A stretch of 26,668 nucleotides of DNA from Oscillospiraceae bacterium (lineage in GTDB: Bacteria; Bacillota; Clostridia; Oscillospirales; Oscillospiraceae): assembly GCA_031260745.1 (NCBI GenBank), contig JAISKY010000212.1:1-26668 (forward strand). Reading direction: 5' to 3'. Numbering within the stretch: the stretch's first letter is position 1; each line of letters starts with the position of its first letter. The translations under genes and the position numbers were made by a program. Below, piece by piece: positions 9,205 to 19,250 of this stretch. The notes beneath the pieces are model-generated. The model saw nothing but the letters and a program-made list of their open reading frames with translations, did not search any database and was not told the origin of the DNA.

Positions 9205-9207
9205 ACA

Positions 9208-9278
9208 AACCGCTAATGAACGCGCATTAACACTAATAGAATAATCGTATTTGTGTTAATTAGTGTTAATTAGCGGTT
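9208..9278. repeat. Inverted-repeat element built from ~9-10-nt tandem units
   Basis: Left arm AACCGCTAATGAACGCGCATTAACAC (9208-9233) vs reverse complement of right arm 9253-9278, AACCGCTAATTAACACTAATTAACAC: 22/26 identical; right arm contains (GTGTTAATTA)x2. Confidence 0.8.
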
Positions 9279-9305
9279 CGTATCCCTCGTATTTTAGGAG
9301 AGCTT

Positions 9306-16924: not shown

Positions 16925-18022
16925 TCAATTGTCCTTTAGAATCGCATCGGCGATACGCTTACTCGCAAAGCCGTCGCCGAACGGGTTTAGCGCGTTTGAC
17001 ATATTAGCGTAAAGCTCGCGGTTTGTGAATAGCTCGCGTAAGTTTTCGTAGACGGTTTGTTCATTGGTGCCGACGAGTTTAAGTGTCCCGGCGGTAATTC
17101 CCTCCGGGCGCTCCGTCACGTCGCGGGCAACCAGCACGGGCTTGTTAAGACCCGCCGCGCCCTCCTGCAATCCGCCGCTGTCGGTTAATATGAAATAACA
17201 TTTATTCATAAAATTGTGGCAATCCGTAACCTCCAGCGGGTCAATCAGCGTTACGCGCTCCACCCCGCCGAGTTCCGAGTCCGCCGCTTCGCGGACGGCG
17301 GGGTTTAGGTGAACGGGGAAAATAACGGCGACGTCCTCAAACTCTCCGACAAAACGCTTAACGGCGCGGAATACGGAGCGCATTGGCTCACCAAGATTCT
17401 CGCGGCGGTGGCACTCCATAAAAACCGGCGTCAGACCGCTTACGCTTTCGAGTACCGCGTGGGAATAGTCCTCGCGGACGGTGTAACGCAACGCGTCAAT
17501 CTCCGTGTTTCCGGTTACGATAATCTTTGAGGGGTCTTTGCCCTCGCGGAGCAGATTCTCGCGGCTATGCTCGGTGGGAGCGAAATATAGGTCTGCAATG
17601 TCGTCGATTACCTGACGATAGACTTCCTCCGGATACGGCGCGAGCTTATCCCACGTCCTAAGTCCCGCCTCCACGTGTCCGACCGGAATCTGTTTGTGGA
17701 ACGCGGCAAGCGACGCGGCGAACGCGGTTCCCGTATCGCCGTGGACGAGCAGAAGGTCGGGGCGGTACTCGTCAAGTACGCCCTCCATACCTTGCAGGGA
17801 GTTACACACGATGTCGGTCAACGTCTGACGCTCCCGCATAATGTTCAGGTCAAAGTCGGGAGTAATGCCGAACGCGGTCAAAACCTGGTCGAGCATTTCG
17901 CGGTGTTGTGCGGTAACGCACAGCTTGGTTTCGCACTCCGAGCGCGATTTAAGTTCCAGATATAGCGACGCCATCTTGACCGCCTCCGGTCGCGTACCAA
18001 ACGTAAGTAGTATTTTTTTCAT
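16925..18022 (-). CDS. wecB: UDP-N-acetylglucosamine 2-epimerase (non-hydrolysing)
   Basis: FGTRPEAVKMA, TAQHREMLDQV, VHGDT, GHVEAGLRT, PYPEE, HRREN, PVHLNP, TDSGGLQE, TERPEG, NPFGDGFAS. Start set at ATG 18022 behind GAGGGG. Confidence 0.97.
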   Translation of the reverse strand: MKKILLTFGTRPEAVKMASLYLELKSRSECETKLCVTAQHREMLDQVLTAFGITPDFDLNIMRERQTLTDIVCNSLQGMEGVLDEYRPDLLLVHGDTGTAFAASLAAFHKQIPVGHVEAGLRTWDKLAPYPEEVYRQVIDDIADLYFAPTEHSRENLLREGKDPSKIIVTGNTEIDALRYTVREDYSHAVLESVSGLTPVFMECHRRENLGEPMRSVFRAVKRFVGEFEDVAVIFPVHLNPAVREAADSELGGVERVTLIDPLEVTDCHNFMNKCYFILTDSGGLQEGAAGLNKPVLVARDVTERPEGITAGTLKLVGTNEQTVYENLRELFTNRELYANMSNALNPFGDGFASKRIADAILKDN

Positions 18023-18041
18023 TGTTCTTCCCCTCGTAAAT

Positions 18042-18154
18042 AGAGCAGAGAGTAGAACGCAGAGAGCAGAAATACCCAATTTGAATCTATTCTCGTATTT
18101 AGCATAGAAAAACAGTATAGGTATCTCTGCTTTCTGCTTTCTACTCTCTGCTTT
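18042..18154. repeat. Inverted repeat of tandem heptamers (A(G/A)AGCAG)n ... (CTGCT(T/C)T)n
   Basis: Left 18042-18076 AGAGCAG AGAGTAG AACGCAG AGAGCAG AAATACC; right 18120-18154 GGTATCT CTGCTTT CTGCTTT CTACTCT CTGCTTT; 31/35 identical to each other's reverse complement; 43-nt spacer. Confidence 0.9.
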
Positions 18155-18164
18155 AATTCTACTA

Positions 18165-18198
18165 TTGACATTCTAGCACATTTGAGGTAAAATTGCAA
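18165..18198. promoter_or_regulatory. Overlapping divergent sigma70 promoters for ispG-polC (+) and wecB (-)
   Basis: +: TTGACA 18165-18170, 17 nt, TAAAAT 18188-18193. -: TTGCAA 18198-18193, 17 nt, TGn-TAGAAT 18175-18170. Confidence 0.75.
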
Positions 18199-18200
18199 GT

Positions 18201-19250
18201 ATGAGTAAACAGATTAGCGTGGGAGCCGTAAAAATCGGCGGCGGCGCTCCCATAAGTATACAGTCGATGACAAATACCGACACGTCGGACGTTAAGGCGA
18301 CCTCGGAGCAGATTAACGCGCTCGCGGCGGCGGGCTGCGACATTGTGCGTGTTGCCGTACCCGACCGTAAAGCCGCCGAAGCGACAGCGGAGATTAAAAA
18401 GCTCGTCAGCGTTCCGATTGTCGCGGACATTCACTTTAACTACAAACTCGCGCTGATTTGCGTGGAAAACGGCGTTGACAAAATCCGAATTAACCCGGGA
18501 AATATCGGCGGAGCGGATAACGTCAGAGCGGTCGTAGACGCGTGTAAGTCGCGAGGTATTCCGATTCGTATCGGGGTTAACGCCGGTTCGCTTGAGAAAG
18601 ATATACTCGCGAAGTGGGGCAAAATCTGCGCGGAGGCGTTAGCCGAAAGCGCGGAGGGTCACGCGCGGCTATTAGAGGACGCCGGATTTGAGGACATTTG
18701 CGTGTCTATGAAAGGTTCAGATGTTCCGAGTACGGTACAGGCGTATGAAATTTTCCGCTCGAAGCGTGATTATCCGTTGCATTTGGGCGTAACGCACGTC
18801 GGCGGCGGAACGGGCGCGGCGGTTAAGGCGGCGGTGGGAATCGGCTCGCTGCTGTTAAAAGGAATCGGCGATACTATTCGCGTGTCGATGATGGGCGAAC
18901 CGACTCAGGAGGTCGTTATTGCCCGGGAAATACTTTACGCGGTCGGGCTTAGGCGTCCGGAGTTGGAGATAATCTCCTGTCCGACGTGCGGACGCTGCAA
19001 GGTTGATTTGGAGGAATACGTCGAGCGTACAAAAACCGCTTTGAATAATGTAAAATCGGATTCTCCGCTTAGGGTCGCGGTAATGGGTTGCGAAGTCAAC
19101 GGACCCGGCGAGGGTAAAGATTGCGACTTCGGGCTTGCGTGCGGCCCTAAGAACGGCATACTATTTGCAGGAGGTCAAACGGTGAAAAAAGTCCCGGTCG
19201 AATCGGGTGTAGACGAGCTTTGCGCATTAATCGAGGGAGCGATAAAATAA
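18201..19250 (+). CDS. ispG: 4-hydroxy-3-methylbut-2-enyl diphosphate synthase (GcpE)
   Basis: PISIQSMTNT, GCDIVRVAVP, VADIHF, RINPGNIG, IRIGVNAGSL, GDTIRVS, SCPTCGRC, VMGCEVNGPGE. Confidence 0.98.
   Translation: MSKQISVGAVKIGGGAPISIQSMTNTDTSDVKATSEQINALAAAGCDIVRVAVPDRKAAEATAEIKKLVSVPIVADIHFNYKLALICVENGVDKIRINPGNIGGADNVRAVVDACKSRGIPIRIGVNAGSLEKDILAKWGKICAEALAESAEGHARLLEDAGFEDICVSMKGSDVPSTVQAYEIFRSKRDYPLHLGVTHVGGGTGAAVKAAVGIGSLLLKGIGDTIRVSMMGEPTQEVVIAREILYAVGLRRPELEIISCPTCGRCKVDLEEYVERTKTALNNVKSDSPLRVAVMGCEVNGPGEGKDCDFGLACGPKNGILFAGGQTVKKVPVESGVDELCALIEGAIK

What the first reader, a model, noticed from the sequence alone, without database searches (positions are those of the whole stretch)
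18042..18154. 113-bp hairpin element of inverted tandem heptamers in the predicted wecB 5' leader
Each arm has four AGAGCAG-like units plus an inner A(A/G)ATACC unit, and the arms match at 31/35. The variant second unit (AGAGTAG) is mirrored by CTACTCT at the equivalent position on the other arm, so the arms are kept complementary unit by unit rather than being independent microsatellites. With the minus-strand promoter at 18198-18170 the whole element is transcribed and ends ~8 nt before the wecB RBS, without a U-tract. From memory, heptamer arrays of this style flank four-helix-bundle genes in other bacteria; this is unverified. Hypothesis: a cargo-less member of a poorly described class of repeat-armed mobile or RNA-processing elements, with 9208-9278 as a second family in the same genome. 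This is my best candidate for an undescribed system here.
Basis: partly seen in the sequence, partly recalled or inferred. Interest (0 to 1): 0.72.

Follow-up and report, generated by a model that had tools for sequence, protein, structure and literature searches.

The report
Gene-less heptamer-armed hairpin repeat element
The hairpin before wecB is one copy of a roughly 115-base repeat whose arms are mirror-image runs of 7-base units; it looks like an empty version of the little-understood cassettes that carry a four-helix-bundle gene and resemble the intervening sequences that RNase III cuts out of ribosomal RNA.

Summary
The arms match 31/35 (34/39 when extended) and the RNA fold is -61 kcal/mol (z = -8.3).

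It is not a local operator. A profile of the element finds 39 loci in this 72%-complete termite-gut genome, and 17 of them are 106-120 nt long. Most fill the gap between a stop codon and the next ribosome-binding site.

Period-7 arrays are specifically enriched: 49, against 0-7 for other periods. At least three heptamer families share one design: arrays, a core of about 45 nt, then complementary arrays.

A bidirectional promoter conserved in four species places the element inside the wecB leader. Two congeners have the same site empty, and a third carries its own heptamer element on the ispG side.

The same genome holds a TIGR02436/PF05635 four-helix-bundle gene bracketed by inverted heptamer arrays. 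The window element's core resembles that gene's 3' end.

No RAYT gene was found in the six genomes of the genus, and no GxxExxY (PF13366) gene in this genome.

Best reading: a gene-less cassette like a 23S rRNA intervening sequence, probably mobile and a likely RNase III substrate. Mobility and cleavage are inferred, not shown.

This scan has reported the same class before, on other genomes.

The parts
18038..18076 (.). Left arm: four AGAGCAG-type heptamers plus the inner unit AAATACC. The consensus outer terminus is TAGAGCAG.
18077..18119 (.). 43-nt core (loop) between the arms
   Evidence: Core length is conserved in the family: 53-56 nt counting the inner units in 15 of 20 copies.
18087..18117 (-). 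Part of the core that resembles the last codons of the genome's four-helix-bundle gene (G000:C125). Possibly a relic of a deleted cargo ORF.
   Evidence: 24 of 30 aligned bases match, score 31. That score is reached by 0 of 5000 shuffles, 1 of 1724 gene 3' ends, and 1 of 20000 random 70-mers. The alignment is colinear up to the arm boundary.
18120..18158 (.). Right arm: inner unit GGTATCT followed by four CTGCT-type heptamers, complementary to the left arm
18170..18198 (-). Predicted wecB promoter TTGCAA-17-TAGAAT. It would place the whole hairpin in the wecB 5' UTR.
   Evidence: The promoter block is invariant in four species of the genus.
18165..18193 (+). Overlapping ispG promoter TTGACA-17-TAAAAT. 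It is not part of the element but marks its right boundary.
18030..18035 (-). wecB Shine-Dalgarno sequence GAGGGG, left unpaired 5 nt beyond the hairpin base
16925..18022 (-). wecB-like UDP-GlcNAc 2-epimerase gene, downstream of the element
   Evidence: PF02350, 368 bits

Best explanation
The element is one gene-less copy of a dispersed palindromic repeat about 115 bp long. Its arms are tandem heptamer arrays around a core of about 45 nt. It belongs to the class of heptamer-armed hairpin cassettes. The full form of that class carries a PF05635/TIGR02436 four-helix-bundle gene, and its best-studied relatives are the 23S rRNA intervening sequences. This copy was inserted between the conserved wecB promoter and the wecB ribosome-binding site. 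It is therefore transcribed as a 37-40 bp double-stranded stem at the 5' end of the wecB mRNA. The most likely molecular consequence is cleavage of that stem by RNase III, as in the Coxiella intervening sequence, or simple 5' stabilisation. Either outcome leaves the ribosome-binding site free. The heptamer arrays themselves probably change by replication slippage and by template switching within the palindrome. Shown here: structure, copy number, placement, empty orthologous sites, a cargo-bearing counterpart in the same genome, and conservation of the promoter. Inferred: mobility, derivation by deletion of the cargo gene, RNase III cleavage, and any effect on wecB.
For: Family size. nhmmer finds 39 loci at E<0.01. 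Of these, 28 have E<=4e-5 and 17 are 106-120 nt long. A 28-mer pattern hits 17 times, against 0 for the reversed control.

Placement. 12 of 23 full copies lie between co-directional genes. 15 end 8-30 nt before a start codon, and the element's terminal TAG or TAA often overlaps the upstream stop codon. Examples are gyrB-gyrA, aminotransferase-pyrG, and upstream of radA.

Copying of whole elements. Cores at different loci are 88-94% identical.

Empty sites. G001 and G002 have the wecB-ispG gap without the element. G003 has a different heptamer element on the other side of the invariant promoter block. The gyrB-gyrA gap in G002 and G005 lacks it.

Period-7 specificity. There are 49 arrays at period 7, against 0-7 at periods 5, 6 and 8-11. 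A relaxed scan gives 119 arrays against 3 in a shuffled genome. 75% of them lie in the roughly 10% of the genome that is non-coding.

Shared design. Three heptamer families have the same layout, with gaps between arrays mostly 42-48 nt.

Cargo form. A TIGR02436 gene (114.5 bits) lies between inverted heptamer arrays in G000:C125, and similar arrangements occur in G001 and G002. AGAGCAG-type arrays bracket a PF05635-like gene in metagenome locus L163.

Relic. The window core aligns with the 3' end of the C125 gene.

Literature. The Coxiella intervening sequence has a 28-bp stem with tandem GACAGAT heptamers, and RNase III cuts in the stem (PMC4990558).

RNase III is encoded by all five congeners.
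Against: No transposase, target-site duplication or presence/absence polymorphism was seen. Only one sequencing run holds the organism, and it shows no deletion joints.

Genome G003 has about 1000 heptamer-pattern hits but no detectable PF05635 gene, so the protein is not obviously needed.

The cargo-bearing cassette in this genome has AAATTAT-type arms, not AGAGCAG-type arms.

The similarity of the core to the four-helix-bundle gene is limited to one subfamily. The mean over 34 cores is not above shuffles. A family-level core profile does not pick out that gene, and a genome-wide BLAST from the gene does not recover the core.

G:U wobbles are split 25:25 between the sense and antisense strands, so nothing indicates selection on the RNA fold.

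RNase III was not found in this 72%-complete assembly.

No RNA data exist.
Confidence: 0.62

Rival explanations
1. The heptamer arrays are binding platforms for an unidentified heptamer-specific RNA- or DNA-binding protein. On this view they form a genome-wide post-transcriptional regulon that tunes translation of the gene immediately downstream. This has been proposed for TAACTGA repeats in Beggiatoaceae and for heptamer repeats in Nostoc.
For: 15 copies end 8-30 nt before a start codon and just upstream of the ribosome-binding site. A central CGTT/AACG motif occurs in 24 of 34 cores, against 5.4 +/- 2.2 in shuffles, and it is found in two heptamer families. Published proposals are in PMC4679880 and 10.1101/2022.06.06.494920.
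Against: The flanking genes are functionally unrelated: gyrase, CTP synthase, cobalamin genes, wecB. Element polarity relative to the downstream gene is mixed. The sibling copies in the window and in C242 have the downstream gene on the same side but their cores are inverted relative to each other. Congeners lack the element at the same genes. There is no strand bias in wobble pairs.
Confidence: 0.15
2. The arrays are ordinary long simple-sequence repeats that grew in place by polymerase slippage at pre-existing hairpins or terminators. On this view nothing ever moved.
For: Unit number varies from 1 to 6 per arm, and solo arrays and chimeric arms exist. One array lies in frame inside a coding region. 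Heptamer excess is a known property of some genomes (Mrazek 2007, as cited in PMC4679880).
Against: Whole elements, including non-repetitive cores, recur at 88-94% identity at unlinked loci. The modal length is tight at 106-120 nt. The same unit order is seen in most copies. Orthologous sites in congeners are empty.
Confidence: 0.1
3. It is a REPIN/REP-type element mobilised by a RAYT (IS200/IS605-like Y1) transposase.
For: It is a dispersed extragenic palindrome of about 115 nt made of two inverted arms, as in REPINs (PMC3116915, listed).
Against: PF01797 was not found in this genome or in any of five congeners, while the control genomes gave hits. The arms are tandem heptamers, not a single REP palindrome.
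Confidence: 0.04
4. It is a local palindromic operator through which a transcription factor co-regulates the divergent wecB and ispG genes.
For: It lies in a divergent intergenic region next to two overlapping promoters.
Against: There are 39 copies, mostly inside unrelated operons. The element is absent from the same region in G001 and G002. At 117 bp it is far larger than an operator.
Confidence: 0.02

Closest known systems
23S rRNA intervening sequences of the S23p/PF05635 type (Coxiella burnetii, Leptospira; Warrier et al. 2016, PMC4990558)
   Same: A long stem is formed by terminal inverted repeats. The stem contains tandem heptamers (GACAGAT in Coxiella, sharing the CAGA core with the AGCAGAG units here). 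The cargo is a small four-helix-bundle gene. The element is embedded in a host transcript. RNase III cuts the stem in Coxiella.
   Different: This copy sits in an mRNA leader, and its siblings sit between cistrons, not in 23S rRNA. It carries no gene. It is multi-copy (39 loci). Cleavage has not been tested.
Inverted pairs of GGGAATC heptamer arrays in Xanthomonas (Rehm et al. 2015, PMC4692102), and heptameric long simple-sequence repeats in general
   Same: These are intergenic arrays, mostly of about four units. 70-75 pairs per genome are convergent and able to form stem-loops. They lie close to the upstream gene's end, and closely related species do not share locations.
   Different: The Xanthomonas units are G-rich and were studied as quadruplex formers. 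No conserved core, discrete element length or gene-carrying form was described.
TAACTGA direct repeats of Beggiatoaceae, cyanobacteria and Bacteroidetes (MacGregor 2015, PMC4679880), and cyanobacterial STRR heptamers
   Same: These are heptamer arrays placed a few nucleotides upstream of start codons, with species-specific abundance. The second heptamer family in this genome and in G003 (TAACTGT) differs from TAACTGA by one base.
   Different: Those arrays are almost all direct repeats (169 direct sets against one inverted). Here inverted pairs are the rule.
REPIN/RAYT systems and bacterial MITEs (BOX, RUP, Correia elements)
   Same: They are short, non-coding, dispersed palindromes in intergenic DNA that are co-transcribed with neighbouring genes.
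   Different: No RAYT was found in six genomes. No transposase partner and no clear target duplication were found. The arms are microsatellite-like rather than unique terminal repeats.

Membership tests
Heptamer-armed hairpin cassette (like a 23S rRNA intervening sequence; PF05635-associated) | Two inverted arrays of tandem 7-nt units forming one long stem | tested here: met
Heptamer-armed hairpin cassette (like a 23S rRNA intervening sequence; PF05635-associated) | PF05635/TIGR02436 gene between the arms | tested here: not met
   The core is only 43 nt, so this copy is gene-less. A gene-carrying cassette exists in the same genome (C125), and the core resembles that gene's 3' end.
Heptamer-armed hairpin cassette (like a 23S rRNA intervening sequence; PF05635-associated) | Wedged between a stop codon or promoter and the next ribosome-binding site of a host transcript | tested here: met
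23S rRNA intervening sequence | Located in helix 25 or 45 of 23S rRNA | tested here: not met
   It lies between wecB and ispG. There is no Rfam match in the window.
23S rRNA intervening sequence | Excised by RNase III cleavage in the stem | not testable with these tools
   No RNA run holds the organism. RNase III is present in 5 of 5 congeners but was not found in this 72%-complete assembly.
REPIN / REP-RAYT | Cognate RAYT (PF01797) gene in the genome | tested here: not met
   0 of 6 genomes of the genus, while 6 of the 14 control genomes gave hits
MITE | Terminal inverted repeats and no coding capacity | tested here: met
MITE | Target-site duplication, and a transposase-encoding parent with the same ends | tested here: inconclusive
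   The flanks are A/T-rich and extend the palindrome. No consistent direct repeat was seen. No parent element was found in a fragmented assembly.
Heptameric long simple-sequence repeats | Genome-wide excess of period-7 arrays, concentrated in intergenic DNA | tested here: met
   49 arrays at period 7 against 0-7 at other periods; 119 against 3 in a shuffled genome; 75% intergenic
Intrinsic terminator | G+C-rich stem followed by a U-tract | tested here: not met
   The tail is AUUUAC, and the scan finds no terminator there.

The most novel reading that the evidence does not exclude
Heptamer-armed hairpins may be one class of selfish cassette that spans many phyla and includes the 23S rRNA intervening sequences. 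On this reading, full copies carry a four-helix-bundle (PF05635) gene. Gene-less copies arise by internal deletion that keeps only the last roughly 40 nt of the interior. These empty copies then multiply in the gaps between cistrons, while their heptamer arms are rewritten quickly. This single origin would explain the heptamer repeats long noted in cyanobacteria, Xanthomonas and Beggiatoaceae. It would also give the orphan four-helix-bundle family a nucleic-acid partner.
Probability: 0.3. Interest if true: 0.8.

Novelty: new variant of a known kind. Interest (0 to 1): 0.58.

Why it matters
Three puzzles have stood apart for decades. The first is why 7-base tandem repeats are over-represented in some bacterial genomes. 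The second is what 23S rRNA intervening sequences are. The third is what the widespread four-helix-bundle (S23p) proteins do.

This genus provides a compact comparative system. One species has dozens of hairpins, one has about 1000 array hits, and others have almost none. Filled and empty orthologous sites lie in essential operons such as gyrB-gyrA. Gene-carrying and gene-less forms occur side by side.

If the stems are RNase III substrates, these elements cut operon transcripts at dozens of junctions. That would affect how gene expression in such genomes should be read.

Tried and rejected
- Rfam: no family matches in the window.
- RAYT (PF01797): absent from all six genomes of the genus.
- GxxExxY nuclease (PF13366): absent from this genome.
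- Strand-specific G:U excess as a sign of RNA-level selection: 25 against 25, no signal.
- Covariation: only 1 of 15 consensus pairs shows double changes.
- Promoter inside the core: the TTGAC-like centre has no consistent -10 partner (by eye).
- General derivation of all cores from the ends of the four-helix-bundle cassette: the mean score is not above shuffles. A core profile does not rank that gene first among 1718 gene 3' ends. BLAST from the gene interior does not find the cores. Only the subfamily that includes the window's copy matches.
- Orthologues of the cobalamin-cluster gene flanked by two copies: not conserved in the genus, so no empty-site test was possible there.
- The look-up of encoding contigs for IspG: nothing on record.
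- Read laying: no deletion joints, and only the source run holds the organism.
- Correlation between PF05635 gene count and array abundance across the genus: none.

Full report
**Observation**

The inverted repeat is exactly as described. Its arms are 18038-18076 and 18120-18158. They are 39 nt long, 87% complementary and 43 nt apart. Each arm reads as four AGAGCAG-type heptamers plus an inner A(A/G)ATACC unit. The variant second unit AGAGTAG is mirrored on the other arm.

The minus-strand transcript folds at -61.2 kcal/mol, against -30.4 +/- 3.7 for shuffles (z = -8.25). The 3' tail that holds the GAGGGG ribosome-binding site stays unpaired. No Rfam family matches. A Logan contig assembled independently from the source run spans the region without a difference.

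**Local context**

The element lies in the 178-bp gap between a wecB-like epimerase gene (minus strand, PF02350) and ispG (plus strand, PF04551). Two overlapping promoters are predicted to the right of it.

I fetched the same gap from four species of the genus and aligned them (A1). The block TTGACATT...TA(G/A)AAT..CAA is invariant. It reads as a -35/-10 pair on both strands in every species.

In G001 and G002 the gap is about 100-130 nt and holds no hairpin. In this genome the hairpin sits between that promoter block and the wecB ribosome-binding site. In G003 a different heptamer-armed element sits on the other side, in the ispG leader.

So the wecB promoter call is supported by conservation, and the hairpin should be transcribed as part of the wecB leader. 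The two filled genomes were filled independently. Removing 18041-18157 leaves a leader of about 31 nt, close to the roughly 33 nt seen in G002.

**A dispersed family**

The window is contig C112 of a draft genome of 1.94 Mb in 311 contigs. It is 72% complete and comes from a termite-gut metagenome.

A profile built from 17 canonical copies finds 39 loci at E<0.01. Of these, 28 have E<=4e-5, and 17 are 106-120 nt long. The distance between the last AGCAGA unit and the first TCTGCT unit is 53-56 nt in 15 of 20 copies. The termini read TAGAGCAG...CTGCTCTA.

Cores fall into subfamilies. The window's core is 88% identical to that of C242, but in the opposite orientation. C133, C195a and C195b share 91-94% identity. 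Whole elements have therefore been copied, not only their arrays.

**Where copies sit**

Of 23 full copies:
- 12 lie between co-directional genes;
- 4 lie between convergent genes;
- 2 lie between divergent genes.

15 copies end 8-30 nt before a start codon, with the ribosome-binding site in between. The upstream stop codon often overlaps the terminal TAG or TAA.

Hosts include gyrB-gyrA, aminotransferase-pyrG, the gene upstream of radA, and a cobalamin gene cluster. The gyrB-gyrA gap of G002 and G005 has no such element. The flanking genes have nothing in common, which argues against a regulon.

**A heptamer-specific genome trait**

Tandem arrays with period 7 number 49. Periods 5, 6 and 8-11 give 0-7 each. 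A relaxed scan gives 119 arrays, against 3 in a shuffled genome. 75% of them lie in the roughly 10% of DNA that is non-coding by crude ORF calls.

At least three unit families exist: AGAGCAG, AACAGTT/AACAGTG and AAATTAT. All three build the same object: an array, a core of about 42-48 nt, the complementary array, and then a ribosome-binding site and start codon.

CGTT or AACG occurs in the central 32 nt of 24 of 34 cores, against 5.4 +/- 2.2 in shuffles. This is unexplained. Chimeric arms and solo arrays also occur.

**Relatives**

The exact 28-mer pattern is absent from 40 relatives. Related units such as ATATCAG and ATAGCAG give about 1000 hits in G003 and 87 in G001. G002, G004 and G005 give none.

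A degenerate CAGANAN pattern is essentially confined to this genus among 121 genomes from 120 genera of the family. A 354-kb sample of G003 shows further unit families, including G+C-rich ones, and larger nested palindromes.

**Link to four-helix-bundle genes**

I scanned for complementary arrays 150-5000 nt apart. This led to G000:C125, where AAATTAT-type arrays bracket a 118-codon gene. The gene scores 114.5 bits on TIGR02436 and 103 bits on PF05635. It is wedged between two ABC-exporter genes in a stop-array-start ... stop-array-start layout. A variant unit AATGCTA is mirrored by TAGCATT on the other arm.

The single PF05635 genes of G001 and G002 are also bracketed by inverted heptamer arrays, each with different units.

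Among 80 metagenome loci fetched only for an AGCAGA-type array, four encode a PF05635-like protein. In three of them the gene lies within about 170 nt of the array. In L163, AGAGCAG-type arrays bracket the gene in inverted orientation.

**A possible relic of the cargo gene**

The window's core, read on the minus strand, aligns with the last codons of the C125 gene. 24 of 30 bases match, and the alignment stays colinear up to the arm boundary.

The score of 31 was reached by:
- 0 of 5000 shuffles;
- 1 of 1724 gene 3' ends in the genome;
- 1 of 20000 random 70-mers.

I did not check which sequences gave those single hits. The sibling C242 scores 30, and C133 and C69 score 22.

The signal is limited to this subfamily. 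It does not hold for all cores, for a core profile, or for a genome-wide BLAST. After allowing for about 68 comparisons it remains suggestive rather than proven.

**What does not fit a simple mobile-element story**

- No RAYT gene is present in six genomes, and no GxxExxY gene in this one.
- There is no clear target duplication.
- No polymorphism was seen.
- PF05635 gene count does not track array abundance. G003 has none detected.
- G:U wobbles are equally frequent on the sense and antisense strands (25:25), and double compensatory changes are rare. The complementarity of the arms may therefore be kept by inheritance and intra-palindrome template switching rather than by selection on an RNA fold.

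**Literature**

- Heptamer excess in prokaryotes goes back to Mrazek 2007, as cited in PMC4679880.
- TAACTGA repeats lie upstream of start codons (PMC4679880).
- Xanthomonas has 70-75 convergent pairs of GGGAATC arrays per genome (PMC4692102).
- Heptamer repeats affect recF and recO expression in Nostoc (preprint).
- The Coxiella intervening sequence has a 28-bp stem with tandem GACAGAT repeats, an S23p gene in the loop, and RNase III cuts in the stem (PMC4990558).

I found no paper that ties gene-less intergenic heptamer hairpins to PF05635 cassettes. Earlier follow-ups in this scan reached the same link on other genomes. My evidence here is independent DNA, but the reasoning is the same kind.

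**Verdict**

The most likely mechanism is an inserted palindromic cassette, like a 23S rRNA intervening sequence, that is transcribed in the wecB leader and is a probable RNase III substrate. All five congeners encode RNase III. It was not found in this incomplete assembly.

Mobility, cleavage and any effect on wecB are inferred.

Noticed in passing
window 18188-18203: The ispG -10 box (TAAAAT) ends 7 nt before the ATG, so the ispG-polC mRNA would be leaderless. The three congeners examined have 25-40 nt leaders with a ribosome-binding site after the same conserved promoter.
   Followed up: partly
G000:C267 4822-4944 (L123): An AGCAGAG-type heptamer array lies in frame inside a 1014-codon BcrAD/BadFG-type activase gene (PF01869 + PF09989). 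It encodes a charged Glu/Arg-rich linker between the domains.
   Followed up: partly
window 9205-9285: The hairpin before leuS, built of about 10-nt units, is also multi-copy, with BLAST matches at C218 (two), C170, C144 and C269 (two). Its units are not heptamers, and its relation to the heptamer class was not tested.
   Followed up: partly
L093 (G004:C46, upstream of ispG): In congener G004, ispG is preceded by about 11 tandem copies of a 21-nt unit (CCTTTTAAGACAAAAGGTTAT) that is itself a mini-hairpin. A few more arrays occur elsewhere in that genome.
   Followed up: partly
G000:C288 10190-10940 (L121): A YdeI/OmdA-like gene (PF13376), with its terminator, lies between a solo AGAGCAG-type left array and a solo complementary right array, as if it were cargo.
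   Followed up: partly
G000:C116 4622-4991 (L288): AAATTAT-type arrays 310 nt apart enclose a 65-codon ORF for a small hydrophobic protein with no family assigned. This may be another cargo type.
   Followed up: no
G000 cores of all three heptamer families: CGTT/AACG is the most enriched 4-mer at the centre of the roughly 45-nt cores (24 of 34, against 5.4 expected). The reason is unknown.
   Followed up: partly
G000:C287 1962-2096 and C31 4425-4498: These are chimeric elements. In one, the left arm is of the AACAGTT family and the right arm of the AAATTAT family. In the other, two different arrays abut with no core. Arrays can therefore be swapped or recombined.
   Followed up: no
metagenome loci L147-L226: (AGCAGAA)n arrays of up to about 20 units, some as inverted pairs around G+C-rich cores, occur in many unrelated soil and other metagenome contigs with G+C of 34-60%. 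The same heptamer recurs far outside this genus.
   Followed up: partly
L095, L098, L104 (G003): G003 intergenic regions hold nested palindromes of 200-400 nt with G+C-rich heptamers (GGGACGN) inside AT-rich heptamer arms. About 77 strict arrays were found in 354 kb sampled.
   Followed up: partly
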